Of a DNA stretch of 64,000 nt, positions 1 through 64,000 are shown one piece after another. The stretch covers positions 2,880,001 through 2,944,000 of the forward strand of contig CP068257.2 in the NCBI GenBank assembly GCA_009914755.4, given 5' to 3'. The stretch comes from the human T2T-CHM13v2.0 reference genome, Homo sapiens. The position numbers and the translations under genes are program-made. The notes beneath the pieces are model-generated. The model ran no database searches. It saw only the letters and a program-made list of their open reading frames with translations, and was not told the origin of the DNA. Position 1 is the first letter of the stretch; each line of letters starts with the position of its first letter.

Positions 1-2794
1 GACTTAATTACCTCTGACCTGCTAAGGCCATTACACTGGGGATTAATGTTCTGGAATGTGAATATGGTGGGGAATCACATAGTCTACTGCAACTTCCAAA
101 GTTATATTTCTAAAACAGCTATTATTTTCCTCCCACTTGCTCTGTCCTGTGCGTCCTCTCTCAATCTCTCTGTCTCCCTTTCTCTTTTTCTGTGCATACG
201 TCTGTCTATCTCTTTCATTTTCCATCTCTGTATTGTAATCCTCAAGATGAGGAAGCGATCTCCAGTGTCCTAAGATGCTCTAGGCACAGACCCACATGAT
301 AGAGAACTGAAGAACTGCCCAGGCCAATCAAAAGAAAGAAACTGGGGTTCTCAGTTCACACTGAATCTTGCCAATTTCCATGAGGCAGATTGGAGGCTGA
401 TCTCTCCCCAAATCCAGCTTCAGTTGAAATCACAGTCCCAGCCTCATAGGGGACCTTGAGGCAGAGGCACCCAACTAAGCTATATCGAGATTCTGGTTCA
501 CAAAAGTTGTGAGATAGTATTTGTTGTCAAAATGTGCTAAAATTCAGAGCAATGTTGTCACAGACGGGCAAATGACTAACCTCCTCTTTCAGGCCCCAGG
601 ATACACCCTCCCCTCTGTTCCTTTCTTTCTCAGGCTGCCTGCAGCCACACTTGTCCCGTTATAACCTCCTCTGCTAAACTGACTTGTGCCTCTGAGTCTT
701 TTCACAAAGAGTGGCTTTTCCCTGACACACTTTCCACACCTGCGCAGTTGTCATTCTCATCACAACATAATGCCAGCTCAGTGAGGTATTCATGTCCCCT
801 CCAGGCAACCTCTCTCCAGCCCTCCCTCCCAACATTCTACTTTATTTCCATTATAAAATGCTCTTTTCTTTCGCATGTACTTGCTTTAGTGTTTTTGTCC
901 TGCAGTCCTCAGACTGTAGGCTCCCCGCGGGGATGCAGGGATAACATAATCGTTTTTGGTACCACATGGTGAACCTACCAAGGTAGCTGCCACAGGGTGA
1001 GTGCTAGGGGAAGAGCCGCTGAGTAAAATAACATGGAAAATCACAAAGTCTTTCCTGCTTTCGGTCACCCAATAATGTGGAGATCAAGAATGATAACAGG
1101 AGCTGCAGGACCTCAGCCTGTCTCTCCCCCGGCTCCAGCTACTCCAGTAAAGTCCAGCGGGCACAAGAAACACGGGGTCTGCCGCCACCTAGAGGCCTCC
1201 GCTAGCACTGTAGTCCCAGGCAGAAGCATCACAAAACAGGTACCTGCACTGGGGAATTCTCAAGGCAGTGGCTCTTCAGGGACCCCTGGGAAAAGGAGCA
1301 GTATCTGAAGACTCCAAGGGCCATAAAAGTGACCTCGGAAGCCTCCCTTGATTCCTATTTTCCTCAGCCTCGTTGGGTGTGCTGTGCACTCATTAAACAT
1401 TTTAACAGCATTCGGCGACATTATTTTCTTCCACTTCCGAATGAGGACCTCAAGGACAGCCCAAAAAACTAGTATTTTTTTCTGGGCCCCACACTCCAGA
1501 GCCCAGTGCATTGTCACATTCTGCTTTATTCCAAGTCCTCATCCGCCCAAGTCTCTAGGCCTCTCTCTTCTCTGAAGGACCTCTAGAAACTGAAAAGCCT
1601 CTTCCCAGAGTCTCAAAGCACAGTGATTTACCAATGAAAAGCCAAGGGCGGCAGACACCTATGAGTATCTAGAATCCTTGGTATTATTCCTTCTCAGTAC
1701 CCCTATTTATGAGGGAGAAAACAAAGGCTTTCTTTCCCGTAGCCTGTCTTTATATCACACGGGGTGGTGGGTGGAGGGCATAGCTCATTTTAGTTCCAGG
1801 TGCCCACAGAAGTGGGAGTCACAACCCCAGTCCTGTCCTCTTGAAACAGCTGGGAAAGTCCCCAGGCTTGGAAGAACCCAGGGAACCTGGAGGATCCTTC
1901 ATCGCATGCTGTCAGCTCCTGGTCATGTAGCTGGGGGAGTGGATGCCTCTGCCTCATGGCAAAGCTGCATCTACTGTTTCTTCCCCTTTTGTCACTTCTT
2001 TGGTTTCCTCTTCCCTAACCTCACTTTAGAATCTCCACTTTAGATCTCCACTTTAGAAGCCTGTGTGTGTGTGATGTGTTTGTGTGTGCATGCCTGCACG
2101 CCTATGTGACAACATTGAAGAGTAGAAAGCCCAGGTAGAAAGTAGAGCACAGGGTTTTCCAGGACTCATGGGCTCTCATTTCCAAAGCAAACCTGATGGG
2201 TGGGGTGCATGCAAGGCCTAGGAAGCTGGATCCCTCCCTAATACTCTGTGCTCTGCCCAATTTCTGGGATCTGGACCAGTCTTTGCCTTTTTGGGAGGTC
2301 TCAGTCTTCCTGTTGTAAAATGAAGAGTTGGCTACAAAACTGTATGAGCACATGCTCAGTGAAGACAGGGTGTCATGCTCAATACCACAGAGAATATTGG
2401 GATGGGGAAAGTTTGGGCAGACTTAGGTGTCCATGCGTGCTCAGGCCTCTGAACAGGGCCAGTGCAGGCAAACATAAAGCACGGCACAGCCAGGTTTTCT
2501 TTCCAGGGCTACAGGATGAAACAGTGCACCACAGGATCTGCTCTTGAGGTCGGTCCCGCAAGATTTTCCCACCTTCAACCAGCAACTGTTTGATGAATTT
2601 CATGTCCTGTGAAGCCCATATCCACCCCCATTACAGTGAGGGGCACAGGGCACTAGACCTGTAAAATAATGTCTTTTGCCTTTTTTTCTTTTCTTTTCTT
2701 TTTCTTTTTTTTTTTTAATGAGTGGATGTTTCTTCTTTCTCCTTTTCTGTTTTGTTTGTTTTTTAACTAATTTTTAAGAGGTCTTTACAGGTCA

Positions 2795-3076
2795 GCTGTG
2801 GTGCCTCGCACCTGTAATTTCAACACTTTGGGAGGATGAGGCAGGTGGATTATTTGAGGTCAGGAGTTCAAAACCAGCCTGGCGAACCTGGTGAAAATCC
2901 GTCTCTACTAAACTTACAAAAAAATTAGCGGGGAATGGTGGCCCAAGCCTGTAGCCCCAGCTACTCAGGAGGCTGAGACAGAAGAATTGCTGAAACTTGG
3001 GAGGCGGAGGTTGCAGTGAGCCGAGATTGCACGACTGCACTCCAGACTGGGTGACAGAGTGAGTCTCTGTAAAAAA
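2795..3076 (+). mobile_element. Alu SINE (arm A copy).
   Basis: Dimeric Alu consensus motifs (ggtcagctgtggtgcctcgcacctgtaat...gcactccagactgggtgacagagtgag) followed by a poly-A tail. Confidence 0.9.
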
Positions 3077-3118
3077 AAAAAAAAAAGAGAGAGAGAGAGA
3101 GAGGGAGAGAGAGAGTGC
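3077..3118 (+). repeat. Poly-A tail followed by a (GA)n microsatellite.
   Basis: aaaaaaaaaaaaaaaagagagagagagagagggagagagagag. Confidence 0.85.
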
Positions 3119-3129
3119 TCTTCATGGAA

Positions 3130-4900
3130 ACATGAGCCCCTTTGTAATTTCATGTGTTGAAAATATTTATTCCAATTTTGCAATTTCTTTTCTTATTGTG
3201 GTGTTCTCTTTAAGTTTGGTTTAGATGTTATTAGTGTTTCTCCCCAAATTGATTTATTGATTTCCATTTTCACAATACAATATTTTGGCAGAAATCTTGT
3301 GGAAACTGTCTAATCAGTTTAAAATTTTAAATACATATTAAAAAATCAAAGAACTGTAAAAACTGTCCTGAAGAATGACAAAGTTTGTGAGCTTACAATG
3401 CCATATATTCAGACTTAGATTAAAGCTATAGTAATAAAAGCTATCTATGGTAGTAATGAAAAAATAGGCACAAAGAAAACTAGAAAAACTCGAGAGTCCA
3501 ACTCAGACTCACACATTTAGACATTTTGTATATTACAAAACAGGCACAGAAGAGCAGTGGAGAGAAGACAGCATCTCGGTAATTAGCCTTGGGTCATCTG
3601 GTTATTTATGTGAGAAAGAAATGAACCTATCTTATATTGTTAACAAATTTCGAGACAAGTGGATTTTAAATTTTAAGGTGAAAATTGAAAACAATATTTC
3701 TAGTAGATAACATAGATAAGTATGTCCATGACTTTGGCACAGGCCAAGATTTCTTGGGACACAAAATGCATAAATTATCAAGACAAAAATATGACAAATT
3801 GGACTTTATTAGAATTAAAACCTTCTCTTCATAAAAAAAAAAAGCTTCAGGAGAGCTGAAAGGCAAGAACAAAGTGGAAATCAACATTTGTCATATATTG
3901 ATCTGGCAAAAGCTTTTTATCTAGATTATTAAGCTAAATCCCATCACTTAATAAACAAAGATGCATACATTGAACAAAATTGGCAAAGATATGACTAGGA
4001 GTTCCACATACAGAACCGAAGGGCCAACAAGTAGATGAACATATCCACATTCTTATGCATCAGAACAATGCATATGAAAACTACAATTGAATACCACTAT
4101 GCAATCATTAACATTTTTGAAAACTGACAAAATTAAGTACTAGTGATGATGTCAAGCAACTGGAACTTTCTTATACCATTCTGTGTGCAAACTGTTATAA
4201 CCACATTCAAAACCACTTGAGTAGTAACTCCTTACATACACGATGTACATAAGCACACTCTAGAACCCAGCAACTCTGCTACTAGGTATATACACCCAAT
4301 AGAATTGCCAGCATATTTTCCAATGTAGTAAAGTGCTCGAAGTAGCATTATTTGGTACTTTTCCAAACTGAAAAAAACTCAAATGTGCATCAATAATAAA
4401 ATAACTAAATAAAACAGCTACATATTCCTTTATAAGGGGACATTATACAGATATAAAATTAATTGGAGACATATTAAAATATACAAAAATCTAACAAATA
4501 CAATTTAATTAGATTTAAAAGTCCTATCCACAGCAATCGGCCAATAGAAAAGAAAAAGGCATACAAATAGAAAAAGAAATTGAATTCTCTTTCTCCATTT
4601 GCAATATGAGTCACTACGTAGAGAATGCTAAAGCCTCTCCAAAACTACTTTTGGGGAAAACTTGAAAAGCCTCCTGAAACGGATAAGCAAGTAAAGTTTT
4701 AGGACACAAAACCAATGTACAAAAATCAGTAGCATTTCTATGCATCAACTACTTTGAATTCCTGAACATCTTCTGGTTTTATTGCATTTTCAATTTTTTC
4801 CCTCCATTAACTATACATTTTTTCTTTTCTCAGCTAAACTAATTTATTCTTCTGTATAATTTCACCTTGTTAATAAACCCCAGGCCAAAAAGTGGGAATA
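3130..4900 (+). mobile_element. Old L1 LINE fragment (3' portion of ORF2 and 3'UTR region), arm A copy.
   Basis: L1-like stretches such as ...cagcaactctgctactaggtatatacacccaatagaattg... (compare L1 cagcaatcccactactgggtatatacccaaag). AT-rich and degenerate. Confidence 0.5.
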
Positions 4901-6247: not shown

Positions 6248-6545
6248 GGCCAGGCACGGTGTCTCATGCCTGTATTCCTGGCATATTGATTGGCTGAGGA
6301 GATAGAATTGCTTGAGGCCAGGAATTTGATACCAGCCTTGTCAACATAGTGAGACCCCATTTATACAAAAAACTTGAAGCATTAAAAACATTTAGCCAGG
6401 TGTGATAGTTCCAAACTGTTGTCTCAGCTATGCTGGACATTGAGGCAGAGGATCACTTGAGCCAGGAGTTCTAGGCTACAGGGAGCTATGATCGTGCTGC
6501 TGCATTCCAACCAGGGCAACTATGCAAGATGTTTCAAAAATAAAA
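6248..6545 (+). mobile_element. Old Alu (AluJ-like), arm A copy.
   Basis: ggccaggcacggtgtctcatgcctgtattcc...gagccaggagttctaggctacagggagctatgatcgtgctgctgcattccaaccagggcaac. Confidence 0.85.
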
Positions 6546-13539: not shown

Positions 13540-13832
13540 TTTGAATCATCTTGCGTGGTTGCCTGTTTGGAGTGCAGTAGCGTGATCATAGTTCACCGCA
13601 GCCTAGAACTCCTGGCTCAAGTGATCCTCTGCCTCAATATCCAGCATAGCTGAGACAACAGTTTGGAACTATCACACCTGGCTAAATGTTTTTAATGCTT
13701 CAAGTTTTTTGTATAAATGGGGTCTCACTATGTTGACAAGGCTGGTATCAAATTCCTGCCCTCAAGCAATTCTATCTCCTCAGCCAATCAATATGCCAGG
13801 AATACAGGCATGAGACACCGTGCCTGGCCAGC
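13540..13832 (-). mobile_element. Alu (arm B mirror of 6248-6545).
   Basis: Reverse-complement Alu motifs (gttgcctgtttggagtgcagtagcgtgatcatagttcaccgcagcctagaactcctggctcaagtgatcc...). Confidence 0.85.
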
Positions 13833-15184
13833 GCCTTTATAATGTTTTATTCTCCCAAGTTCTTCTCAAAAAAGTCAACATCCACCAAGTATCAGCTGAG
13901 ATTTGAACTTCAACCCTGGGCTGAACTCAGTGGCAGGACTCTCCATTCCCAACAAGGGACAAATGGAGAAATAAATGGTGAGAGGGAGGAGCTTGATTCT
14001 GCCCATGCTAATTGGACACCTATTGTGTGCTAGGAAGACACACAGAGGTCAATCCAAATTCCAGCTCCAGCCACAGCAGGACAGCCATGGTGTAGAAGGC
14101 CAAGCCCAGAGGAGGGAGCCTTAGCAAGCGGAGCACCCCTCCATGGAGTATTGACACTCTGTTATTTCAGTTATACTGAAAACTAATAGAAGGTATGAGA
14201 TATTGCACTCAACCATTATGAGCAAGAAAATCCATTCAATCTTCTTTAATTTGGTTAAAACTAACCTTTACTAAAAGGCAGCAAAGAATAATGCTTGTCT
14301 ATGAGAATTTAAAAACATCATAGCAAACCACTCCGTTCTCAGTTTAAGAGGAAAGGCAAAACGCTTGTGTGGGAGAATAAGAAAAAAAATATTTATGTAA
14401 TACTTTGAGTTTCTATTGCTCCTAACCACCATTGCTACATAATTATTCCAAATTATAGCTCTTATTTACCCATCCTACTGTTAAAAAGTACCTCACTGAT
14501 TCTGTAACCCCCAACTAATCCACCCTATAGTCCCTAGATGACCAGAGATGCCTATTATCCTCTGCTTTTTACTGTCACTCTCCCCAGTCCAGCAAACTCA
14601 TTCCTCTTCCTGCATAAGCCTCCTGTGTTTCTGCCTTTTTTTATCTGCACCCTCTGCTGAGATTCTTTTGTCTTCACCCATCCCAAAGCCATCCATACTT
14701 CCACTGCTTGACTAGGGGTAATTATCTCATTCACCCAGCCTAATTTTTAACCTTACCTTCCTGCTCCCACCCTCTCTTCACTCTGAACAAGATTTTACTA
14801 GGTTGTTGTTATGTTCTGGGGTTCGGAGAATCTGACTAGTGTGAGTTTCCCAAGGTAAAGGTAATGCCTTAATAATTTTCACTTTAATTGCTGTTTGCGC
14901 AGTGTTTTGCACAAAATTTAACACAATAATTGCTCCCAGAGTAAATGTATAAATCTTTGCAATGTCTGATTTGACTCCCTTAGAGTTTGGATCTTTTCCC
15001 CTACAACCATCCAGAGTCCTGTCTAACCAAAGTGAAAATGCGGAACTCCCTCTTTCTGGCTGGCATCACTGCTGAGAACGGAAATAAATGCTGTCTATGC
15101 CAACTCCCTAGAACAAGTATAGGTTTCATCTAGACTAGTTTTCAAAATGAGGAAACAGGATGCAGACAAATACTTTATTCCCAC

Positions 15185-16955
15185 TTTTTGGCCTGGGGTT
15201 TATTAACAAGGTGAAATTATACAGAAGAATAAATTAGTTTAGCTGAAAAAAGAAAAAATGTATAGTTAATGGAGGGAAAAAATTGAAAATGCAATAAAAC
15301 CAGAAGATGTTCAGGAATTCAAAGTTGTTGATGCATAGAAATACTACTGGTTTTTGTACATTGGTTTTGTGTCCTAAAACTTTACTTGCTTATCCATTTC
15401 AGGAGGCTTTTCAAGTTTTCTCCAAAAGGAGTTTTGGAAAGACTTTAGCATTGTCTACGTAGTGACTCATAATGCAAATGGAGAAAGAGAATTCAATTTT
15501 TTTTTCTATTTGTATGCCTTTTTCTTTTCTATTGGCTGATTGCTGTGGATAGGACTTTTAAATCTAATTAAATTGTATTTGTTAGATTTTTGTATATTTT
15601 AATATGTCTCCAATTAATTTTATATCTGTATAATGTCCCCTTATAAAGGAATATGTAGCTGTTTTATTTAGTTATTTTATTACTGATGCACATTTGAGTT
15701 TTTTTCAGTTTGGAAAAGTACCAAATAATGCTGCTTAGAGCATTTGTCTGCATTGGAAAATATGCTGGCAATTCTATTGGGTGTATATACCTAGTAGCAG
15801 AGTTGCTTGGTCCTAGAGTGTGCTTATGTACATCGTGTATGTAAGGAGTTACTACTCAAGAGGTTTTGAATGCCGTTATAACAGTTTGCACACAGAATGG
15901 TATAAGAAAGTTCCAGTTGCTTGACATCATCACTAGTACTTAATTTTGTCAGTTTTCAAAAATGTGAATGATTGCATAGTGGTATTCAATTGTAGTTTTC
16001 ATATGCATTGTTCTGATGCATAAGGATGTGGATATGTTCATCTACTTGTTGGCCCTTCGGTTCTGTATGTGGAAATCCTAGTCACATGTTTGCCAATTTT
16101 GTTCAATGTATTGCATCTTTGTTTATTAATTGATGGGATTTAGTTAAATAAACTAGATAAAAGGCTTTTGCCACATCAATATATGACAAATGTTGATTTC
16201 CACTTTGTTCTTGCCTTTCATCTCTCCTGAAGCTTTTTTTTTATGAAGAGAAGGTTTTAATTCTAATAAAGTCCAATTTGTCATATTTTTGTCTTGAGAA
16301 TTAATGCATTTTGTGTCCCAAGAAATCTGGGCCTGTGCCAGTCATGGACATATTTATCTATGTTATCTACTAGAAATATTGTTTTCAGCTTTGACCTTAA
16401 AATTTAAAATCCACTTTTCATTGGAATTTGTTAATAATATAAGATAGGAGTGTTTTTTCTCACATAAATAACTGGTTGACTCAAGGCTATTTACCGAGAA
16501 GACTGTCTTCACTCCTCTTCTGTGCCTGTTTTGTAATATACAAAATGTCCAAATGTGTGAGTCTGAGTTGGACTCTCGAGTTTTTCTAGTTTTCTTTGTG
16601 CCTATTTTTGCATTACTACCATAGATAGCTTTTATTACTATAGCTTTAATCTAAGTCTGAATATATGTCATTTTAAGCTCACAAACTTTGTTATTCTTCA
16701 GGACAGTTTTTACATTTCTTCGATTTTTTATATGTATTTAAATTTTTTAAACTGATTAGACAGTTTCCACAAGATTTCTGCCAAAATATTGTATTGTGAA
16801 AATGGAAATCTATGAATCAATTTAGGGAGAAGTTACATAGAAACAAAGCAAAACAAAACACTAATAACATCCAAAACAAACTTAAAGAGAACACCACAAT
16901 AAGAAAAGAAATTCCCAAATTGGAATAAATATTTACAACTCATGAAATTACAAAT
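15185..16955 (-). mobile_element. Old L1 fragment (arm B mirror of 3130-4900).
   Basis: Reverse complement of the arm A L1 segment. Confidence 0.5.
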
Positions 16956-16991
16956 GGGCTCGCATTTCCATAAAGGGCACTCTCTCTCTCC

Positions 16992-17296
16992 CTCTCTCTC
17001 TCTTTTTTTTTTTTTCCACAGAGACTCACTCTGTCACCCTGTCTTGAGTGCAGACGTGCAATCTCGGCTCACTGCAACCTCTGCCTCCCAAGTTTCAGCA
17101 ATTCTTCTGTCTCAGCCTCCTGAGTAGCTGGGGCTACAGGCTTGTGCCACCATTCCCGGCTAATTTTTTGTAATTTTAGTAGAGACGGGGTTTCACCAGG
17201 TTGGCCAGGCTGGTTTTTAACTCCTGACCTCAAATGATCCGCCCGCCTCAGCCTCTCAAGTGTTGAAATTACAGATGTGAGGCACCACAGCTGACC
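16992..17296 (-). mobile_element. Alu (arm B mirror of 2795-3076), with a flanking (CT)n run and poly-T.
   Basis: ctctctctccctctctctctcttttttttttttttccacagagactcactctgtcaccc...ggctcactgcaacctctgcctccc... Confidence 0.9.
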
Positions 17297-18002
17297 TGTA
17301 AAGACCTCTTAAAAATTAGTTAAAAAACAAACAAAACAGAAAAAGAGAAAGAAGAAACAGCCACTCAGTTAAAAGAAAAAGATAAAGAAAAAGAAAAAGA
17401 AAAGAAAAGAAAAAAAGGCAAAAGACATTATTTTACAGGTCTAGTGCCCTGTGCCCCTCACTGTAATGGGGGTGGATATGGGCTTCACAGGACATGAAAT
17501 TCATCAAACAGTTGCTGGTTGAAGGAGGGAAAATCTTGCGGGACCAGCCTCCAGAACAGAGCCTGTGGTGCACTGTTTCATCCCGTAGCCCTGGTAAGAA
17601 AACCTGGCTGTGCCGTGCTTTATGTTCACCTGCATTTGCCCTGTTCAGAGGCCTGAGCTACCGTGAACACATAAGTCTGCTCAAACTCTCCCCATCCCAA
17701 TATTCTATCTGGTATTGAGCATGACACCCTGTCTTCACTGAGCATGTGTTTATGCAGTTTTGTGACCACCTATCCATTTTACAACAGGAAGACTGAGGCC
17801 CCCAAAAAAGGCAAAGACTGGTCCATATCCCAGAAATTGGGAAGAGCACAGAGTATTAGGGAGGGATCCAGCTTCCAAGGCCTTGCATGCACCCCACCCA
17901 TCAGGTTTGCTTTGGAAATGAGTGCTCCTAAGTCCTGGAAAACCCTGTGGTCTACTTTCTACCTGGGCTTTCTACCCTTTCTTATTCTCACATAGGTGTG
18001 CA

Positions 18003-18050
18003 GCCATGAACACACAAACACACCACACACACACACACACACAGGCTTCT
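18003..18050 (+). repeat. (CA)n microsatellite.
   Basis: cacacaaacacaccacacacacacacacacacacagg. The arm A counterpart at 2040-2100 is a degenerate (TG)n. Confidence 0.85.
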
Positions 18051-19989
18051 AAGGTGGAGATCATGGAGGTGAGGTTAGAGAAGAGGAAACCAGAGAAGTG
18101 ACAAAACGGGAAGAAATAGAAGAGGCAGCTTTGCCATGAGGCAGAGGCATCCACTCCCCCAGCTACATGACCAGGAGCTGACAGCATGCGATGAAGGATC
18201 CTCCAGGTTCCCTGGGTTCTTCCAGGCCTGGGGATCTTCCCAGCTGTTTCAAGAGGACAGGACAGGGGTTGTGACTCCCACCTCTATGGGCACCTGGAAC
18301 TAAAATGAGCTATGCCCTCCCCCAACCACCCCATGTGATATAAAGTGGGGCTACGGGAAAGAAAACCTTCGTTTTCTCTCTCATAAATAGGGGTACTCAA
18401 AAGGAATAATACCAAGAATTCTAGATACTCATAAGTGTCTGCTCCCCTTGGCTCTTCATTGGTAACTCACTGTGCTTTGAGACTCTGGGAAGAGGCTTTT
18501 CAGGTTCTAGAGGTCCTTCAGAGAAGAGAGAGGCCTAGAGATGTGGGCAGATGAGGACTTGGAATAAAGCAGAATGTGACAATGCACTGGGCTCTGGAGT
18601 GTGGGGCCCAGAAAAAATACTAGTTTTTTGGGCTGTCCTTGAGTTCCTCATTCAGAAGTGGAAGAAAATAATGTCTCTGAATGCTGTTAAAATGTTTAAT
18701 GAGTGCACAGCACACTCAAAGAGGCTGAGGAAAATAGGAATCAAGGGAGGTTTCCGAGGTTACTTTTATGGCCCTTGGAGTCTTCAGATACTGCTCCTTT
18801 TCCCAGGGGTCCTTGATTAGCCACTGCCTTGAGAATTCCCCAATGCAGGTGCCTGTTTTGTGATGCTTCCACCTGGGACTTCAGGGCTAGTGGAGGCCTC
18901 TAGGTGGCGGCAGACCCCGTGTTTCTTATGCCCGCTGGACTTTACTGGAGTAGCTGGAGCTAGGGGGGAGAGTCAGCCTGAGGTCCTGCAGCTCCTGTTA
19001 TCATTCATGATCTCCACATTATTGGGTGGCCAAAAGCGGGCAGAAGGGCTTTGTGATTTTCCATGTTATTTTACTCAGCGACTCTTCCCCTAGCACTCAC
19101 CATGTGGCAGCTACCTTGGTAGGTTCACCTTGTGGTACCAAAAATGATTATGTTATCCCTGCCTCCCGGCGGGAGCCCACGGTCTGAGGACTGCAGGACA
19201 AAAACACTAAAGCAAGTACATGTGAAAGAAAAGAGCATTTTATAATGGAAATAAAGTAGAATGTTGGGAGGGAGGGCTGGGGAGAGGTTGCCTGGAGGGG
19301 ACATGAATGCCTCCCTGAGGTGACATTATGTTGTGACCAGAATGACAACAGAGAGCCAGTCCTGCGCAGGTGTGGAAAGTGTGTCAGGGAAAAGCCACTC
19401 TTTGTGAAGAGACTCACAGGCACAGGTGAGTTCAGCAGAGGAGGTTATAACGGGACAATTGTGGCGGCAGGCAGCCTGAGAAAGAAAGGAAAAGAGGGGA
19501 GGGAGGATCCTGGGGACTGAAAGAAGAGATTAGTCATTTGCCCCTCTCTGACAAAATTTCCCTGAATTTTAGCACATGTTGACAACAAATACTATCTCAC
19601 AACTTTTGTGAACCAGAATCTCGATATAGCTTAGTTGGGTGCCTCTGCCTCAAGGTCTCTTACGAGGCTGGGGCTGTGATTTCAACTGAAGCTGGATTTG
19701 AGGAGAGATCAGCCTTCTATCTGCCTCATGGAAACTGGCACGATTCAGTGTGAACTGAGAGCCCGAGTTCCTTCCTCTCGATTGGCCTGGGCATCTCCTC
19801 AGTTCTCTATCATGTGGGTCTGTGCCTAGAGCATCTTAGGACACTGTAGATCACTTCCTCATCTTGAGGATTACAATACAGAGATGGAAAATGAAAGAGA
19901 TAGACAGACATATGCAGAGAAAAAGAGAGAAAGGGAGACAGAGAGATTGAGAGAGGACGCACAGGACAGAGCAAGTAAGAGGAAAATAA

Positions 19990-20400
19990 TAGCTGTTTTA
20001 GAAATATAAATTTGGAAGTTGCAGTAGACTATGTGATTCCCCACCATGTTCACATACCAGAACCTTAATCCCCAGTGTAATGGCCTTAGCAGGTCAGAGG
20101 TAATTAAGTCCAAAGCATGAGGACCTCATGATAGCGATTACGGGCTTTGTAAAAGAAACCGCAGAAGGTTGTCTCTCCCTCTCTCTGCTAAATGAGAAAA
20201 CAACCTGAAGTCTGGAGTTTGAAACTCAGAAGAGAGTCCTTACCAGACCCCAACCATGCTGGAAGCCCAATCTCAAATTTCTGGCCTCTAGAACTAATGT
20301 CTTTTATTTATAAGTTGCCTAGTCTATGTTTTTTGGTATAGAAGTCTGAACTAAGTCAGAAGTGATAACCTATCACATTTGTTGTTTTCCCTTTGACAGA
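19990..20400 (+). mobile_element. MaLR/MLT1-like LTR fragment that straddles the outer end of arm B. Its mirror copy is at window positions 1-110.
   Basis: Characteristic MaLR LTR end, ...ccagaaccttaatccccagtgtaatggccttagcagg...ctagaactaatgtcttttatttataagttgcctagtctatgttttttggtatagaagtctgaactaa. Confidence 0.4.
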
Positions 20401-21039
20401 AACTAGAACCAGGTCCCCAAAGAGTTCATCCAATGACTAGCAGAAATTCTTCAGTTTGCAGAATGACAGATAAGAAAAGATACAACTTGTTGAAAGAATG
20501 AAATTTATTCCACTTATGAGACTTCTAAAAAGTGGCTAAAATTGGTCGGAACCAATATGGTCAACTGGAGTCTGTGTGAAATAAGCTCACTGATGTGAAA
20601 GCCCAAATTTCCATCACATGTTTTGTACTGACTGTCCCCAAATTTGCACATGTGACCTGTGTGTAGCAAGAAAAAATAGTTGTTCATGCCCAGTGATTTT
20701 CCATACATTTTTCCTTTAAGCAATTCCGTACTAATCCAGAACCTACCTCCTAAACCTTTCTGAGAATATTACTACCTTTAAGTAAGCACAGGGAAACAGA
20801 CTTGAGCTGGAATCCCATCTCTTTGTTAGAAACCCGGTGTTATAGTACCTGCTTCTGAGGCACTGAGAGGTGAGCTGCGTTTTAAAATAACAGAGTCACT
20901 CACAACTTAGTGTTGTTGTAAGACTTTGTTGGGGGCGCCCACCACATAGGCTGAGATGAGGCATATACATATGATTCTAAAAATAATGCACAGCACTGGA
21001 ATATTTAATGCCAGAAGACAGTATCTGATTTTCTTTTAA

Positions 21040-21250
21040 TTTCAACCTCTTCTGCTGTGGAATGGAAAATTAAGGCCATATATATAAAATATATATCTTT
21101 TATGTATAAAGATACATAAACTATGTATCTTTTATATATAAAGATATATATGTATAAGTTTATATATTATATATAGTTATATATAATTGATATATATATA
21201 GTTATATATAATATATAAATAAAATTATTTATATACATTATATATATATA
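21040..21250. repeat. TA-rich simple repeat carrying an internal tandem duplication of about 45 bp.
   Basis: atatatataaaatatatatcttttatgtataaagatacataaactatgtatcttttatatataaagatatatatg...tatatatatatatatttttt. Confidence 0.8.
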
Positions 21251-34257: not shown

Positions 34258-34735
<478 letters not shown>

Positions 34736-53862: not shown

Positions 53863-54095
53863 TTTTTTTTTTTTGACAGGGTCTTGCTCTGTCACCCAGG
53901 CTGGAGTGCAGTGGCACAATCTCTGCTTACTCAAGCTCTGCCTCTCAGGCTCAACTCAAACAATCCTCCCACCACAGCCTTCTGAGTACCTGGGACCACA
54001 GATGTGCACCACTACTCCTGGCTAACAGTTGTTATTTTGCATAGAGACAGGGTTTTGCCATGTTGCCCAGACTAGTCTCAAAATCCTAAGAACTG
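53863..54095 (-). mobile_element. Old Alu (partial).
   Basis: tttttttttttttttgacagggtcttgctctgtcacccaggctggagtgcagtggcacaatctctgcttactcaagctc... Confidence 0.8.
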
Positions 54096-55274
54096 TAGGT
54101 ATTTTCTTTGTTGTTACTATAGATATTACCAAGAATAACTACTATTGCATATAAAACCCTGCCTCTTTATGGCTCCCTATGTGTTTTATTGATGTCACAA
54201 ATTATATCATTTTGTGTTGTGAATCTATTGGCACAGATTTATAGTCATTTTTAAGTCTTTGTTATCTCAAATATATAGCAGAATTAAAGTATTCTGTGCA
54301 TCTTCATTATAATTACAAAGAATATTATGATTGTGTACATAATTTTCTCTATTAGAAAAGGTCATATTTTACATAATTTTGTGTTGCTCTCATCATTATT
54401 TCATTTTTTAATATGAATGACTATTTAGCATTTTTTAAGACAGGCCTAGTGGGTATAAATTTATACAGTTTTTGTTGATCTTGAATATTCTTTATTTTTA
54501 TTTTTTAATTCATTTGAAATGATAGTTTTGGCAGACATAGTGTTCTTGGCTGGTACTTGCCATTTTTTCAGCACTTTGAGTATGTCATCCTACAACCTCT
54601 TACCTGTAAGTTTTTTTGCTGAGACATCTGCTGGTCATCCTGCAGGGGTAAACTTGTACATGCTAAGTCACTTTTTTCTTGCTGACTTCAAGATTCTCGG
54701 TGTTTTAACTTTTGAATCTCTGATTATAATGTGTCTTGTCATGGGTCTCCCTGTGTTGTTACTAGTTAGAGTTGGTAAAGTTTCATTAAATTTTAGGTCA
54801 TTTTCTCCCTCAAATTCTGAGTTCTCTGTCACTGTTTGTTTCTTGAAATAACTTTGCTGCTCTCTTTTCTCTTTTTATTTTAGAATTCCCATTATGAGTA
54901 TATTGGCCATCTTAATGGTATCCTATAAGTCCCTTAGGCTCTCTTAATTTTTTAAATTATTTTTAGCCTCCTCACCCTATAATTTCAAATGACTTCTTAT
55001 GAGGCTTGCTGAATTTTTTCCTGCTAGATCAAACCTGTTGTTGGACCTTCTAGTGAATCTCTAAACTCAGGTATTTTACTTTTCAGCTCTACACTTTGTT
55101 TCTATTTTGCACTTTTAATCACTTCTTTGATAATCTCATTATCTTCATGCATTGTTTTCTTTTTCTGTTTAGTTTTCTATATTCTTCTTTAGCTGACTGA
55201 GCATCTTTAAGCTAGGTGTTTTAGCCAGGCACAGTGACACTTGCGTGTAACTCCAGCTACTTTGAAAGCTAAGG

Positions 55275-55610
55275 CAAGAGGGCTACTGTATTAATCCATT
55301 ATCATGCTGATAATAAGGACATAAACAAGACTATGTAATTTATCATGAAAAAAGGTTTAATGGCCTCTCAGTTTCACATGGTTAGGGAGGTCTCACCATT
55401 ATTGGAACAAGCAAGAGACTGTTCAGGGGAACCTCCACTTATAAAACCATCAGATCACATGAGACTTATTTGTTATCATGAGAACAGCACGGGAAAATCC
55501 CACCCCCATGATTCAATTACCTCCCACAGGGTACCTCCCAGGACATATGGGGATTATTACAATTTAAGATGAGATTTGATTGGGGACACAGAGCCAAACC
55601 CTATCAATTA
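55275..55610 (-). mobile_element. THE1/MST (MaLR) LTR.
   Basis: Reverse complement of the THE1 consensus: tgtattaatcc...ataataaggacat... at one end and ...cacccccatgattcaattacctcccacagggtacctcccaggacatatggggattattacaatttaagatgagatttgattggggacacagagccaaaccctatca at the other. Confidence 0.65.
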
Positions 55611-55839
55611 CTTAAAGCCAGGAGTTTGAGACTACCCCGGGCAATATTGTGAGAAGCTATTGGTAAAAAATATTTTCACATATTACTCAGGCATTGTGGA
55701 ATGTTCCTGTAGTCTCAGGAAGTTGGAGGCTGAGGTAAGATTATTCCTTGAGTTCCCCAGGAACTTGAGGCTGCATTGAGCTATAATCATGGTATTGTAT
55801 TCCTGTCTGGGTGAGAGAGTAAGACCTCTTTTTAGCATT

Positions 55840-57700
<1,861 letters not shown>

Positions 57701-57749
57701 TTATTTTACTATTAATGATTTAAAGCTATTTTTTCTTAAAAGAGAAACA

Positions 57750-58030
57750 ATTCCAGGTATGGTAGCTTGTGCCAGCACTTTCAGACTGAAGCAGTCGGAT
57801 TGCCTGAGACCAGGAGTTTGAGACCAGCCGAGGCAACACAGCAACATACTGTTTGTACAAATTTTTTTAAAGAAACTATACAGGAGGGGTAATGTGCACA
57901 ACTGTGGTCATATTTACTCAGGAGACATAGGAGGCATGACTGCTTGACTTCGAAATTTGAGGTTACAGTGAGCTGTGATTCCACCAGTGTACTCTGTCCC
58001 AGGAGATAAAGTAAGATCCTCTGCATAAAA
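57750..58030 (+). mobile_element. Old Alu (AluJ-like).
   Basis: ccaggtatggtagcttgtgccagcactttcagactgaagcagtcggattgcctgagaccaggagtttgagaccagcc... Confidence 0.75.
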
Positions 58031-59274
58031 TGAAAAAGTAAAGAAAAATAAAAAGATTTTAAGTTAAAAAAATAATTCCTAGATCTCCACTTCTTTAGGT
58101 TCACTTGAATATATATTTTTCTCCTTTGATTAGGTTATATTTCCTGGTTGCTTTTACTTACTGTAGTTTTGTTAAGGTTTTGATCAATTAAGAAACCACT
58201 ACCTATTTTATCCTTTATGAAAGAGCTTTATACATGGGAAAATTGACAACATTCAGCCACAGTAGTCATACTGGGAGCTTCTCCAATCTGTTGTCAAAAT
58301 GTGTCTTCTTTGGACTACTGTATGTATTTTCTTGTTAATAAGGTTTACCTCTGTTTCCTCTTAGGAGCCTTTAGTCTCTTCCCTTCGTCACTGTTGTAGG
58401 CACTACAGTCTCTGTTGTTGTAAGAAGCATTTATCTTTATTCTCAGTTGACCCAAGCTGTCATTTAAACTCAGTCTCTATTCTCATCAACACTAAATGTT
58501 AAAGGAAGCAATTTCCAGTCTTTAGATAACCCCGGTATAACTCAGTAAGTCAGAAGTTTGCATACGCATTTCACTCTTTTTTCTTTCCCAAAGGAGAATC
58601 ATGGAATGGACAGATTTTTATCTAACTGCGCTGTTCTGTAGTGCACAAATGTGACCAAATTTTCTTCTAAATGTGGTTATGGTTGGCTTTTTTCTCATGT
58701 GGGGTGCTACAAACTCAACTGGCTTTGTTCACCCAATTGTAGTTAAGTTCATATGTCAATGGAGAGAAACAGGATCTCAGGTTCTGCTTAAACTGTCATT
58801 GTCTTCTCAGCTGACCTCATTTTGTACATTAGATTTATAAAATATATTTACTTTAATCTCATCACCGAATTTTTAAAAAAATTATTATTTTTCAGCTCTT
58901 TTAGCAATATATCCAATCAAGACCCAGAGAAAACAGTACATAGAAGCTTCTTTTCAAAAAGTAATATTGGGAAGATATGGGAGCTCTGGCCTTGAACTTT
59001 TACACTTAGGAGAGTGGGAAATTGAAGGATAAGTGTAAACGGCACAAAGTATGCTATGATGAATATACCAGATATACAGCAATTACCTACAGCAAAAATG
59101 TCACTGCTAGAAGAGCTCAAAACCATAAAGTATTTTGGAAAAAGCATAATTAATGTTGATTCTTTTTTCTGAACTATATATTTATATAATTACATACCAA
59201 TAACAATTTTTGAAACATATCATGTTTTTGAAACAAAATTTAGAAAATCGCAATAGTGGCCTAGGCCAGGAATA

Positions 59275-62200
59275 TTTCTTCTAATGCTATCCCTCCCATA
59301 GTCCCCCACTTCCCGACAGGCTCCAGTGTGTGATGTTCCCCTTCCTGTGTCCGTGTGTTCTCTTTGTTTAACTCCCTATTATGAGTGAGAACATGCGATG
59401 TTAGCTTTTCTACTCTTGTGTTAGTTTGCTAAGAATGGTGGTTTCCAGCTTCATCCATGTCCCTGCAAAGGACATGAACTCATCCTTTTTATGACTGCAT
59501 CGTATTCCATGATGTGGACATGCCAAGTTTTCTTTATTCAGTCTATCATTGATGGTCATTTGGTTTGTTTCAAAGTTTTTGCTCTTGTGAACAGTGCCAT
59601 AATAAACATACGTATGCAGGTATCTTTATAATAGAATAATTTATAATCCTTTGGGTATATACCCAGTAATGTGATTGCTGGGTCAAATGGTATTTCTCAT
59701 TGTGGATCCTTGAGGAATCACCACACAGTCTTCCACACTGGTTGAACTAATTTACACTCTCACCAACAGTGTATAAGTCTTCCTATTTTTCCACATCCTT
59801 TGTTGTTTCCTGATTTTTTTAATGATCACCATTCTAACAGGTGTGGGATGGTTTCTCATTGTGTTTTTGATTTGCATGTGTCTAATAACCAGTGATGATG
59901 TCCTTTTCTTCATTTGTTTATTGGCTGCATAAATGTCTCCTTTTGAGAAGTGTCTGTTCAAATCCTTTGCCCATTTTCGATGTTGTTGTTTCTTTTTTTC
60001 TTGTAAATTTGTTTAAGTTCTTTGTAGATTCTACATATCAGCCCATTGTCAGATGGATAGATTGCAGAAATTTTCTCCCATTCTTTAGGTTGCCTGTTCA
60101 CTCTGATATAGTTTTTTTTGTTGTGCAGAAGCTCTTTAGTTTAATTATATCTCGTTTGTCAATTTTGGCTTTTGTTGCCATTGTTTTTGGTGTTGTAGTC
60201 ATGAAGTCTTTGCCCATGCCTATGACCTGAATGGTACTGCCTTGGTTTTCTTCTGGGGTTTTTATGGTTTTAAGTCTTATGTTTAAGTCTTTAATCCATC
60301 TTCAGTTATGTTTTGTATAACGAGTAAGGAAGAAGTCCAGTTTCAGTTTTTTGCATATGGCTAGCTAGTTTTCCAACACCATTTATTAAATAGGGAATCC
60401 TTTCCCCATTACTTGTTTTTGTCAGGTTCATCAAAGATCAGATGATTCTAGATGTTGAGTGTTATTTCTGAGGCCTCTGTTCTGTTCCATTTGTCAATAT
60501 ATCTGTTTTGGTACGAGTACCATCCTGTCTTGGTTACTGTGGCCTTTTAGTATAGTTTGAAGACAGCTAGCATGATGCCTCCACCTTTGTTCTTTTTGCT
60601 TAGTATTGTCTTGTCTATGCAAGACCTTTTTTGATTCCATATGAAATTTGAAGTAGTTTTTTTTCTAATTCTGTGAAGAAAGTCAACGGGAGCTTGATGG
60701 GGATAGCAATGAATTTTTAAATTACTTTGGGCAATATGGCCATTTTCATAATATTGATTCTTTCTATCCATGAGCATGGATTGTTTTCATTTGTTTGTGT
60801 CCTCTTTCATTTCCTTGAGCAGTGGTTTGTAGTTCTCCTTGAAGTGGTCCTTTACATCATTTTTAAGTTGGATTCCTAGGTATTTTATTCCCTTTGTAGC
60901 AATTGTGAATGAGAGTTAACACATGATTTGGCTCTCTGTTTGCCTATTATTGCGTATAGGAATGCTTGTGATTTTTGAACATTGATTTTGTATCCTGAGA
61001 CTTTGCTGAAGTTGCTTATCAGTTTAAGGAAATTTTGGGCTAAGATGGTAGGGTTTTCTAGATATACAATCATGTCATCTGCAAACAAAGACAATTTGAC
61101 TTCTCTTCCTATCTGAATACGCTTTATTTCTTTCTTTCTTTGGCTGATTGCCAGAACTTCCAATACTATAATGAATAGGAGTGGGGAGAAAGGGTGTTCT
61201 TGTCTTGTGCAGGTTTTCAAAGGGAATGCTTCCAGTTTTTGCCCATTCAGTATGATATTAGCTGTGCATTTGTCATAAATAACTCTTATTATGTTGAGAT
61301 AGGTTCCATCAATACATAATTCATTGAGAGTTTTTACCATGAAGAGGTGTGGAATTTTATTGAAGGCCTTTTTTGCATCTATTGAGATAATCATGTGGTT
61401 TTTGTCATTAGTTCTGTTTATGTGATGGATTTTATTTATTGATTTGCATATGTTGAACCAGCTTTGTATCCCAGGGATTAAGCTGACTAGATCGTGGTGG
61501 ATAAGCTTTTTGATGTGCTGCTGGATTCGGTTTGCCAGTATTTTATTGAGGATTTTCGCATCGATATTCATCAGGGATATGGGCCTGAAATTTTCTTTTT
61601 CTGGTGTGTCTTTGCCAGGTTTTGGTTTCAGGATGATGCTGGCCACATAAAATGAATTAGGGAGGAGTACCTCTTTTTCTATTGTTTGAAATAATTTCAG
61701 AAGGAATGGTACCAGCTCCTCTTTGTACCTTTGGTAGAATTCGGCTGTGAATCCGTCTGGTCCTGGACTTCTTTTTGTTGGTAGGCTACTAATTACTGCC
61801 TCAATTTTAGAACTTGTTATTGGCCTATTCAAGGATTCGACTTCCTACTGGTTTGCACTTGGGAGGGTATATGTGTCCAGGAATTTATCCATTTCATCTA
61901 GATTTTCTAGTTAATTTGTAAAGAGGTATTTATAATATTCTCTAATGATACTTTTTATTTCTGTGGGATCAATGGTTATATCCCCTTTATCATTTCCTAT
62001 TGCATGTATTTGATTCTTCTCTTCTTCCTTATTAGTCTGGCTAGAAGTTTATTTATTTTCTTGATCTTTTCAAAAAACCAGCTCCTGGATTCATTGATTT
62101 TTTTGGACGGGCTTTTTGTGTCTCTATCTCCTTCAGTTCTGCTCTGATCTTAAATCTTGTCTTCTGCTAGTTTTTGAATTTGTTTGCTCTTGCTTCCCTA

Positions 62201-62320
62201 GTTTTTTTAATTGTGATGTTACGGTGTCGATTTTAGACATTTTTCTGCTTTCTCTTGTGGGGATTTAGTGCTGTAAATTTCCCTTTCAGACTACTTTAGC
62301 TGTGTCGTATTTTACTTTTT
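59275..62320 (-). mobile_element. 5'-truncated L1PA-type L1 (3'UTR plus about 3 kb of ORF2). It contains an open 315-aa reverse-transcriptase fragment at 60885-61832 on the minus strand.
   Basis: Reverse complement of the L1 3'UTR (ctaatgctatccctcccatagtcccccacttcccgacaggctcc...). The ORF-track protein carries L1 ORF2 RT motifs (...[33 protein letters not shown]...[12 protein letters not shown]...). Confidence 0.9.
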
Positions 62321-62899
62321 AAGCCCTCAATCTTTCTTTTTCATCATGATAGTCTTTACTGTTTTATGTTTATGTAATGTAAAATTGACTACACAATTTT
62401 TACAAAGATTTTATGAAAATATTTTATTGAGAATGTACAAACCTGTCAGTCAATTAGAGGAGAAGTTACACTGTCGTAATAAATAGCCACAAAGCAAAAC
62501 CCCAAAAGACATCCAAATCAGAATAAAACAAAACATTTTAACAAAAACAAAAAGAACAAACTGGCAACAAATATGTGAAGTTTATATTACAAAGATGCTC
62601 ACTTATCCACTCTAAAGAGAGCTTTTAGAATTTGATTTAAAATATGGCAAAGACATTATCCCACACTTCACAGAAAAAATAAATTTAAGCAGCTGTTAAC
62701 ACATGAATGTATTATCAAGCTCAGATATAATCAAAATTAAATATTTGACAAGAGATTCTACAGTTTGGGAGAAATAGAAGTGTTTTTTTCTTTTCCCCAG
62801 GCCCACAAGTCTAGTTTCTTGCTCTTCTTCACTATAATGGGGTTTGTCATCAGCTCCCCAAAATATGGGAAGCACAGAGCAGGTGGTGGCTGAAGGTGG

Positions 62900-64000
62900 G
62901 GTATCCTGTGAAACCATATTTAAGATCAGAGCCCTTGGTCCATTGTGTTGTAATCAGCTGGCTCAGGAAAGAACACCTGGCTGTCCAGAGCTCTACACCT
63001 ACTGCACTGGGTGTGAAAGGAGGCCTGAGAACCCATGGGTCCCAAACCCACCCCACTCCAAATTATCATCCAGTATTGAGAACTCTGACACCAAATTCTC
63101 ACAGAGCATATGTTTATGCAGTTTTACATTTAATTTCTCATTACATTACAATTGGGAAACTGAGGCCCCAGAAGAGGCAGAGACTGGTCCAGATCTCAGG
63201 AGGTGGGCAGGCTCCAGAGCATTAGAGAGGGCTCCAGCTTCCTAGGCCTTGGCTCCGTCCCACTTATCAGGTTTGTTTTCGAAATTAGAGTCTGTAGCTA
63301 CACATTCAGGAGCACAGAAAATGAGCAGATTCAGGGTTCTGTTCACATGGGACCTCTCCATGTCATTTTCAAGATAACAGGACTGGGGTTCTGCATCCAG
63401 CTCTGAGGGCAACTGGAAGTAAAATGAGCTATGCTCCACCTCAGCCTAATGTAGACAGTGCCTACAGGAAAGCCTGTTTTCTTCCTCATAAATAGGGGTG
63501 CCTGAAGTGGGTGACCTTGATGATTTCACATACTCATAAGTGTCTGCCAGCCTGGATTCTTGCTCTGAGACTGCAAAAATGCACCCACTCTGCAGATCCT
63601 TCAAATCAGAGGGAGGCATGGCCACTTGAGAGGCATCTTGGGTAGATGAAGATGAGACAGAGTTAAATGTGCCAGAGCACTGGACTCTGAGGCTGAGGTC
63701 CACGGAAAATCCCAGCTACTGTTGCGTTCTTAAGGTCCTCATTTGAAAGTGGTAGAAAATAATTTCACTGGATAAGGGGAGGATACCTCATGAGTAAATA
63801 GCACAACCAAAAAGGTGGAGGCAAAGAGAGGGCAAAACGGGATTCCTAGGTCACTCATTATACTTGGGGCCTTCAGATCCTGCTACTTTATCCCCTAGGA
63901 CCTTGAAGAACCAGTGTCTTGAGGACAGAAAAATCAAGGTATCAGATTTGTTCAGTAGTGCTCCTGCTTGGGGCTGTAGGGTTAGTGATGGCCAGGAGGT
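62900..64000 (+). repeat. Diverged paralogous copy (about 70-75% identity) of the palindrome-arm segment 17780-18830 (the same as the reverse complement of about 1250-2330).
   Basis: Eye alignments: 63170-63290 gaggcagagactggtccagatctcagg...gggctccagcttcctaggccttgg...cccacttatcaggtttgttttcgaaat matches 17800-17930 ggcaaagactggtccatatcccag...ggatccagcttccaaggccttgc...cccacccatcaggtttgctttggaaat. 63415-63560 ctggaagtaaaatgagctatgc...ctcataaataggggtgcc...catactcataagtgtctgc matches 18295-18440. The 63850-63900 window matches 18770-18810. Confidence 0.7.

What the first reader, a model, noticed from the sequence alone, without database searches (positions are those of the whole stretch)
62900..64000. 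Third, more diverged copy of an arm segment at the window end
62900-64000 aligns colinearly, in the same orientation as arm B, with 17780-18830 at roughly 70-75% identity over about 1.1 kb. Blocks are conserved and small ORFs are echoed (LGRAQSIREGSSFQGLACTPPIRFALEM versus MGRLQSIREGSSFLGLGSVPLIRFVFEI). One explanation is an unrecognised interspersed repeat shared by the arms. The alternative is that an older duplication seeded the locus before the palindrome formed. Either way the arm sequence is not single-copy even outside the palindrome.
Basis: seen in the sequence. Interest (0 to 1): 0.55.

Follow-up and report, generated by a model that had tools for sequence, protein, structure and literature searches.

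The report
Old diverged duplicate of palindrome-arm DNA
The window end holds a real but very old (~67% identical, at least 4.4 kb) non-coding duplicate of DNA that later became part of the palindrome arms; this is ordinary for a duplication-rich human region such as 3p12.3 and shows no sign of function.

Summary
Window 62308-64000 is colinear with arm B, in the same orientation, and with arm A inverted. The best HSP scores 223 bits against at most 28 for shuffles. Identity is 64-69%, not 70-75%, and the true partner of 62900-64000 is about 17530-18905. Human metagenome contigs about 99% identical to the window extend the copy. The shared segment is then window 16662-21079 versus 62308 to virtual 66772, about 4.4 kb each, running past the visible end of arm B.

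It does not behave like a transposon family. All six frames lack Pfam domains, and there is no L1 ORF2 match in the body. The left edge lies inside an old L1 remnant in the arms, and the right edge has no poly(A). Block ORFs find 11 and 3 relatives, against more than 7,400 for the window's L1 RT.

Each lineage carries its own Alu or other insertions, with empty sites in the other copy. K80 is 0.46-0.47 for C versus A/B and 0.07-0.08 for A versus B.

The best reading is an ancient DNA-level duplication that predates the palindrome. The "conserved blocks" fit binomial noise. This is ordinary and of low interest.

The parts
62308..64000 (+). Copy C: the visible part of the diverged duplicate. It continues beyond the window to about virtual position 66772, judged from contigs L001 and L004.
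   Evidence: Sensitive BLAST and MAFFT colinearity with arm B 16662-18905.
16662..21079 (+). The A/B-lineage counterpart of copy C. It lies in arm B up to 20110 and continues about 1 kb past the visible arm end.
   Evidence: HSPs 62308-62609/16662-16970, 62805-63288/17435-17922, 63367-64000/18247-18905, v64015-64991/18919-19926 and v65413-66357/20066-21012. A local alignment reaches 21079 with z=14.7.
104..3407 (-). The arm A counterpart of copy C, inverted. Arm A is cut by the window start.
   Evidence: HSPs 62308-62565/3407-3136, 62805-63290/2662-2173, 63334-64000/1879-1187 and v64016-65043/1172-104. Arm A 1-6900 matches 20110-13175 at 93.4%.
17003..17295 (-). An Alu inserted in the A/B lineage after the split from C. 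The same Alu lies in arm A at about 2772-3100. C shows the empty site at about 62605-62625.
   Evidence: Rfam Metazoa_SRP and mir-1268 partial matches at 17019-17295(-).
17925..18165 (.). A ~240-bp stretch containing a (CA)n run. It is present in both arms and absent from C. Whether it is an insertion in A/B or a deletion in C is unresolved.
   Evidence: Alignment A1 columns about 1370-1605. The HSP spacing is 325 bp in B against 79 bp in C.
15663..16847 (-). A very decayed L1 ORF2 remnant (about aa 812-1222) in arm B. It crosses the left boundary of the shared segment at 16662.
   Evidence: tblastn with the ORF2p probe gave linked HSPs with E=1.1e-5. Targeted hits were aa 813-825 at 16844-16806 (E=0.002) and, in arm A, aa 852-916 at 3341-3532 (E=0.003).
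59273..62309 (-). A younger L1 fragment abutting copy C. It is 5'-truncated at about ORF2 aa 288 and lacks its 3' terminal ~100-130 bp (by comparison with a recalled L1 3' end) and its poly(T). It defines the left breakpoint of C.
   Evidence: ORF2p aa 288-1275 align colinearly to 62309-59371. The RVT_1 ORF is at 60885-61832. The 3' end was read.
63206..63286 (+). The echoed peptide in C (GRLQSIREGSSFLGLGSVPLIRFVFEI). Its partner in arm B is at 17840-17920. It is simply the translation of homologous non-coding DNA.

Best explanation
The segment is one product of an ancient DNA-level duplication of ordinary non-coding genomic DNA. An ancestral stretch of at least 4.4 kb already contained part of an old L1 plus about 3.7 kb of its non-L1 flank. 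That stretch was copied once, giving the ancestor of the arm sequence (now window 16662-21079) and the ancestor of copy C (62308 onward), in direct orientation and now 45.6 kb apart. The two copies then decayed neutrally to about 67-69% identity. Each picked up its own insertions. The A/B lineage gained an Alu. The C lineage gained an Alu and a 336-bp repeat, and an L1 fragment now truncates its left side. Much later, the region holding the A/B-type copy was duplicated in inverted orientation to form the palindrome, whose arms are 93% identical. The region around C has also been re-duplicated recently, giving variants about 99% identical. Nothing indicates a present function. Shown here: the homology, its extent, its mosaic content, the lineage-specific insertions and the order of events. 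Inferred: the DNA-level mechanism and the absolute age, which is roughly that of the mammalian radiation (on the order of 100 Myr), based on 0.23 substitutions per site per lineage.
For: The homology is significant, colinear and about 4.4 kb long. A and B are equidistant from C (K80 0.464-0.471, ts:tv 1.15), whereas A versus B is 0.079. So the C split predates the palindrome. The Alu at 17003-17295 and the ~240-bp segment are shared by A and B and absent from C, which shows an empty site. The C lineage has its own Alu (v65037-65360) and a 336-bp insert (v66370-66706), with empty sites in the window. The content is a mosaic. In the arms an old antisense L1 ORF2 remnant crosses the left boundary. 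Both copies switch from T-rich (42% T) to A-rich (43-64% A) at the same aligned point. The 3.7-kb body has no Pfam domain in any frame, no ORF2p match and no Rfam match apart from the Alu. The ends are not transposon termini. The left end is a breakpoint against a doubly truncated L1, and the right end has no poly(A). Copy-number proxies are low: 11 hits for the C ORF and 3 genuine hits for the arm ORF, against more than 7,400 for the window's L1 RT ORF. By inference, two independent copies of any non-L1 family landing 45 kb apart, in the same orientation and colinear over 4 kb, would be very unlikely.
Against: No RepeatMasker/Dfam library or primate genome could be searched, so a long, old, non-coding, low-copy repeat family cannot be formally excluded. 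The protein-based copy-number proxies cannot see relatives as diverged as A/B is from C; the C-ORF search did not even recover the A/B copies. L1 ancestry of the left part is shown only in the arms and is weak (22-28% amino-acid identity). In C it rests on nucleotide homology to B. Everything beyond position 64000 comes from metagenome-assembled human contigs that are 99.0-99.3% identical to the window, not identical, and could be paralogous copies. Both ends of the duplicated unit are obscured: a truncating L1 on the left, and an AT-repeat, an Alu and the contig ends on the right. A K80 of 0.47 implies great age, which is surprising inside a young duplication-rich region. The two copies may have been brought close together secondarily.
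Confidence: 0.72

Rival explanations
1. Both the A/B ancestor and C are independent insertions of a long, old, non-coding interspersed repeat not recognised here, such as a decayed ERV internal region or another low-copy mammalian-wide repeat.
For: An identity of about 67% is typical of two copies of a Mesozoic repeat family. No library search was possible. A weak 48-nt MIR-like match exists in C and B (z 4-5), showing that old repeat fragments may be present.
Against: All six frames of the body lack Pfam domains, and there is no ORF2p match. In the arms the left boundary falls inside an L1 remnant rather than at a terminus, and the right end has no poly(A). Proxy searches find very few relatives. 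No further copy occurs in the other ~55 kb of the window. Two same-orientation colinear 4-kb copies 45 kb apart are improbable for any family other than L1.
Confidence: 0.13
2. One copy arose by an RNA-mediated route: L1 3' transduction or retrocopying of a read-through transcript that carried the L1 3' end plus downstream flank.
For: The architecture, an L1-derived left part followed by an A-rich stretch ending in an A-rich tail (arm B ~17380-17425) and then several kb of flank, resembles a 5'-truncated L1 with transduced flank.
Against: No poly(A) tail or target-site duplication is seen where homology ends (window ~21079 / v66772). The L1 part adjacent to the boundary is antisense, so a simple sense read-through does not fit. 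The left end of C is a breakpoint against another L1 rather than a clean 5' truncation.
Confidence: 0.07
3. The two copies are retained because they carry function, such as paralogous lncRNA exons, enhancers or small ORFs, as the conserved blocks and echoed peptides might suggest.
For: Sub-blocks reach 80-84% identity. ORFs of 121-133 aa overlap the segment.
Against: After removing the unalignable A-rich stretch, the variance ratio is 1.25 (p=0.067), and the best window (0.84) equals the binomial expectation (P=0.59). There are no Pfam domains. ORF relatives are only near-identical copies of the same loci, with frameshifted variants among them.
Confidence: 0.05

Closest known systems
Ancient (diverged) intrachromosomal segmental duplications, as listed in genome self-alignment ('self chain') tracks
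   Same: A multi-kb, non-coding, colinear paralogous block. It contains pre-existing repeat fragments and is interrupted by lineage-specific Alu/L1 insertions with empty sites in the paralogue.
   Different: It lies far below the operational threshold of at least 90% identity used for 'segmental duplications' (PMC2640414, PMC3878106 abstracts). Only one end of each copy is visible here.
The recent segmental-duplication/CNV cluster at human 3p12.3 around MIR1324
   Same: The window carries mir-1324. MIR1324 lies in a CNV-burdened interval at 3p12.3 (PMC3938728). Human-derived contigs covering 52862-64000 and beyond differ from each other by about 1%, as expected for recent paralogues.
   Different: Those recent copies are 97-99% identical, with some at 91-96%. 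The C versus A/B relationship is an order of magnitude older.
L1 3' transduction
   Same: L1-derived sequence is followed by kilobases of co-duplicated flank.
   Different: There is no terminal poly(A) or target-site duplication, and the adjacent L1 part is antisense.
Primate large palindromes (X/Y-type inverted repeats with a spacer)
   Same: The A/B pair is such an inverted repeat, with arms of at least 6.9 kb at 93% identity and a ~5.9-kb spacer.
   Different: Copy C is not a third arm. It is in direct orientation to arm B, 42 kb away, only ~67% identical, and predates the palindrome.

Membership tests
Interspersed repeat / transposable-element family | Recognisable coding remnants (RT, integrase, gag, transposase, L1 ORF1/ORF2) in a multi-kb element | tested here: not met
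   Pfam on all six frames of 17400-21100 gave 0 families at E<=1. tblastn with L1 ORF2p gave no hit in 17440-21079 or 62310-v66512.
Interspersed repeat / transposable-element family | Discrete element termini (poly(A), LTRs or TIRs) with target-site duplications at the ends of the homologous block | tested here: not met
   In arm B the left boundary lies inside an L1 ORF2 remnant that continues on both sides. In C it abuts a doubly truncated L1. The right end has no poly(A). The true ends may be obscured.
Interspersed repeat / transposable-element family | Many dispersed copies genome-wide | tested here: inconclusive
   Proxies only: 11 and 3 ORF relatives, against more than 7,400 for L1 RT, and no further copy in the window. 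These proxies cannot detect relatives at ~67% DNA identity.
Interspersed repeat / transposable-element family | Match to a curated consensus (Dfam/Repbase) | not testable with these tools
   No repeat library was available. MIR and L2 consensi recalled from memory gave no significant BLAST hit and only a weak 48-nt MIR-like local match.
Segmental duplication (operational definition) | Length of at least 1 kb | tested here: met
   About 4.4 kb per copy, with 3,624 aligned columns.
Segmental duplication (operational definition) | At least 90% sequence identity | tested here: not met
   64-69% identity and K80 0.46-0.47. It is a duplication by origin, but too old for the operational class.
Segmental duplication (by origin) | Co-duplication of unrelated sequence types across their junctions, plus post-duplication insertions with empty sites in the paralogue | tested here: met
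   An L1 remnant plus non-L1 flank are colinear in both copies, with a strand-composition switch at the same aligned point. There are A/B-specific and C-specific Alus and a 336-bp insert, each with an empty site in the other copy.
L1 3' transduction / retrocopy | Poly(A) tail at the 3' end of the copied segment, flanked by target-site duplications | tested here: not met
   There is no poly(A) where homology ends (window ~21079, v66772). The boundary could be secondarily eroded.
Palindrome arm (third arm copy) | Arm-level identity (about 93%, as for A versus B) and inverted pairing | tested here: not met
   C is about 66% identical to both arms, in direct orientation to B, and forms an outgroup to A and B.

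The most novel reading that the evidence does not exclude
The ~4.4-kb unit is a member of a long, ancient, low-copy mammalian repeat family that has not been catalogued. Alternatively, a pair of ancient paralogous non-coding elements has been retained near mir-1324, with the slightly better-conserved stretch (arm B ~19346-19764, 76-80%) under weak constraint.
Probability: 0.08. Interest if true: 0.35.

Novelty: already known. Interest (0 to 1): 0.12.

Why it matters
It matters little beyond bookkeeping. It shows that the palindrome formed on sequence that already had an old paralogue about 45 kb away. Arm sequence is therefore not unique outside the palindrome, which is relevant for read mapping, primer design and reconstructing the duplication history of this 3p12.3-like, CNV-prone region. 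It also warns that "echoed ORFs" and "conserved blocks" in diverged paralogues can be pure noise.

Tried and rejected
(1) MIR and L2 content. Consensi recalled from memory gave no significant BLAST hit anywhere in the window. A targeted Smith-Waterman test gave only a 48-nt MIR-antisense match in C and B (z 5.3 and 4.2) and none in A. A second suspected MIR was not supported. I did not use MIR as evidence.

(2) My first reading of C 62540-62790 as a sense-strand L1 ORF2 C-terminus ("ANKHMKRCS...CWRGCGE") was not supported by tblastn and was dropped.

(3) A twin-primed L1 structure (an inverted ORF2 segment followed by a sense 3'UTR and poly(A) at arm B ~17425) fits the T-rich to A-rich switch. 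It could not be tested and is kept only as a possibility. Arm B also holds an out-of-order L1 piece (aa 726-748 at 15318-15386), so more than one old L1 is involved.

(4) A search for renewed homology to the left of the L1 that abuts C (window 50000-59273 against arm B/spacer) found only Alu and L1 matches.

(5) An Rfam E-value scan of both copies found only the Alu.

(6) An exact-ORF lookup of window 62844-63245 was not on record. The locus was reached instead through P0001 and P0121.

(7) Pfam with DNA references failed because of stop codons. I repeated it with X-masked translations.

(8) I tested v66776-66925 for a partner beyond the window's AT-repeat and Alu and found none.

(9) I considered a metagenome DNA-pattern scan as a copy-number census and did not run it. 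Exact-pattern matching has almost no power for relatives at ~67% identity.

Full report
Context. The window is primate, and almost certainly human, genomic DNA. GC is 40% and CpG observed/expected is 0.21. It holds many ~290-bp Alu-like repeats and several L1 fragments. A full-length match to Rfam mir-1324 lies at 27720-27810 (97.7 bits). MIR1324 lies at 3p12.3 in a CNV-burdened interval (PMC3938728). Arm A is cut by the window start, so the arms may be longer.

Check of the observation. Standard BLAST of 62900-64000 against the window finds pieces in both arms at 75-91% identity. Sensitive BLAST gives long colinear HSPs:
- 62308-62609 with 16662-16970
- 62805-63288 with 17435-17922
- 63367-64000 with 18247-18905
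The mirror-image hits fall in arm A, all at 62-68% identity. The best real HSP is 223 bits, against a maximum of 28.3 bits for 30 shuffled queries. A three-way MAFFT alignment gives C-B 64.3%, C-A 64.9% and A-B 92.9%. The echoed peptides exist at C 63206-63286 and B 17840-17920. Identity is about 65-69%, not 70-75%. The true partner of 62900-64000 is about 17530-18905. The copy begins 600 bp further left, at 62308.

Extension beyond the window. The L1 RT ORF at 60885-61832(-) has a 99%-identical protein, P0001, in the public collection. Its 7.4-kb ENA metagenome contig, L001, matches window 59084-64000 at 99.33% and continues 2.5 kb further. The ORF at 62844-63245 has a 100%-identical product, P0121, on many human gut metagenome contigs up to 14.5 kb long. 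These match window 52862-64000 at 97-99.3%. I used them as a proxy for the sequence after position 64000 and call those positions 'virtual' (v). In that sequence, copy C stays colinear with the window:
- v64015-64991 with arm B 18919-19926, at 70%
- a C-specific Alu at v65037-65360
- v65413-66357 with window 20066-21012, at 66%
- a C-specific 336-bp insert at v66370-66706, related to window 55286-55608
- v66704-66771 with 21007-21079 (z=14.7)
No partner was found for the next 150 bp, and the contigs end in an Alu. The shared segment is therefore window 16662-21079 against 62308-v66772, about 4.4 kb in each copy. It runs about 1 kb beyond the visible end of arm B. After removing lineage-specific insertions, 3,624 columns align at 67.8% identity.

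What the segment is made of. A human L1 ORF2p sequence recalled from memory served only as a probe. It validated itself by aligning colinearly (aa 288-1275) to the L1(-) at 62309-59371 and to the other L1s in the window.

With that probe, arm B carries a very decayed antisense ORF2 remnant, aa ~812-1222 at 15663-16847 (linked E=1.1e-5). Targeted hits were aa 813-825 at 16844-16806 (E=0.002) and, in arm A, aa 852-916 at 3341-3532 (E=0.003). This remnant crosses the left boundary of the shared block at 16662, so in the arms that boundary is not an element terminus. Copy C is too decayed there to give a protein-level hit, but it is 65-74% identical to B across the stretch.

Both copies switch from T-rich (42% T) to A-rich (43-64% A) at the same aligned point. 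In arm B the A-rich part ends in an A-rich tail near 17380-17425. The remaining ~3.7 kb has no Pfam domain in any of six frames, no ORF2p match and no Rfam match other than the inserted Alu.

The left end of C abuts a younger L1(-) fragment at 59273-62309. That fragment is 5'-truncated at about aa 288 and lacks its own 3' end and poly(T). It is therefore a rearrangement breakpoint. No homology to the arm resumes on its far side.

Order of events. Over ~1,400 shared sites, K80 is 0.471 for C-B and 0.464 for C-A (ts:tv about 1.15, near saturation), and 0.079 for A-B, or 0.069 without CpG sites. The 91-99% relatives of C (L002, L009, L008) are all equally far from A and B (0.46-0.49), so A/B and the C group are two clades.

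A and B share an antisense Alu at 17003-17295, confirmed by partial 7SL matches. They also share a ~240-bp segment containing a (CA)n run. C lacks both, and it shows the uninterrupted target for the Alu. C has its own Alu and its own 336-bp insert, with empty sites in the window.

So the C versus A/B split came first, the lineage-specific insertions followed, and the palindrome formed last. At 0.23 substitutions per site per lineage, the split is roughly as old as the mammalian radiation. This is an inference from commonly used neutral rates and is not measured here. The palindrome, at about 0.035-0.04 per lineage, is of the order of 30 Myr old if gene conversion is ignored.

Repeat family or duplication? 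Several lines point to duplication:
- The block is a mosaic of an L1 remnant plus non-L1 flank, in the same order in both copies.
- It lacks transposon termini and coding remnants.
- No other copy occurs in the window.
- Block ORFs find very few relatives. The C ORF finds 11, all C-type at 65-100% amino-acid identity. The arm ORF 1678-2043 finds 3 genuine relatives among 1.84 billion representatives. The L1 RT ORF from the same window finds more than 7,400.
- For any family other than L1, two independent insertions 45 kb apart, in the same orientation and colinear over 4 kb, would be very improbable (inference).

The caveats are real. The protein proxies cannot see relatives at ~67% DNA identity, since they did not recover A/B from C. 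No Dfam/RepeatMasker run or genome-wide DNA search was possible. I therefore put 0.72 on an ancient DNA-level duplication, 0.13 on an unrecognised old repeat family, 0.07 on an RNA-mediated (transduction-like) origin and 0.05 on functional retention.

Conserved blocks. In 50-column windows the identity is overdispersed (variance ratio 1.95, p=1.7e-6). This comes from three windows in the unalignable A-rich stretch, 16978-17420. Without them, mean identity is 69.1%, the variance ratio is 1.25 (p=0.067), and the best window (0.84) is what binomial sampling predicts (P=0.59). The echoed peptides are simply translations of homologous DNA. Related 'proteins' in the database include frameshifted variants.

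Comparison with known things and verdict. By origin this is an old intrachromosomal duplicated segment, of the kind recorded in genome self-alignments. It fails the operational segmental-duplication criterion of at least 90% identity. It sits in a region that also carries very recent duplications: human-derived contigs over 52862-64000 differ from each other by about 1%, and relatives at 91-96% exist. It is not a third palindrome arm. The finding is real but ordinary. Novelty is 'already known' in kind, and interest is low.

Noticed in passing
window 27720-27810 (+): A full-length match to Rfam mir-1324 (97.7 bits, gathering score 70). MIR1324 maps to 3p12.3 in a CNV-burdened interval (PMC3938728), which probably identifies the locus. 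It lies in a GC-rich stretch (26-32 kb, 50-52% GC).
   Followed up: partly
window 52862-64000 and beyond (loci L001-L007, L010): Human gut metagenome contigs cover this region at 97.1-99.3% identity to the window and differ from each other by 0.2-3%. That is far more than allelic variation. It suggests that copy C and at least 14 kb around it belong to a recent multi-copy segmental duplication, or that the assemblies are chimeras of such copies.
   Followed up: partly
L008 (1-1513) and L009 (1-1818): These are further relatives of copy C at 91.2% and 94.4% identity to the window, and 96% to each other. P0123 looks like a mosaic of the two types. I could not decide whether they are human paralogues or orthologues from other host species.
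   Followed up: partly
window 1-7050 vs 12957-20110: The palindrome arms are 93.4% identical (K80 0.079) with a ~5.9-kb spacer. Arm A is cut by the window start. Because old homology to copy C continues past 20110, the arms may be longer than the visible 7 kb.
   Followed up: partly
window 59273-62309 (-): An L1 fragment with an intact 315-aa RT ORF (60885-61832). It lacks both its 5' part (it starts at about ORF2 aa 288) and its 3' terminal ~100-130 bp (by comparison with a recalled L1 3' end) plus poly(A). Both its ends are breakpoints rather than a normal insertion.
   Followed up: yes
window 55286-55608 and virtual 66370-66706 (L004 10884-11220): A ~330-bp interspersed repeat of a family I could not name (65% identity between the two copies). 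It is inserted in the C lineage only.
   Followed up: no
window 15318-15560 vs 15663-16847: Two antisense L1 ORF2 remnants in arm B lie in an order (aa ~700-748, then aa 1222-812) that a single element cannot give. This implies nested or independent old L1 insertions.
   Followed up: no
window 21090-21250: An AT-rich microsatellite with an internal inverted repeat (21133-21246) lies exactly where detectable homology to copy C ends. An antisense Alu follows it.
   Followed up: no
window 34561-34715 and 41028-41608: Short tandem arrays: ~9-bp-register A-rich repeats after an Alu at 34.5 kb, and ~80-100-bp direct repeats in a GC-rich stretch at 41 kb, seen in the self-comparison.
   Followed up: no
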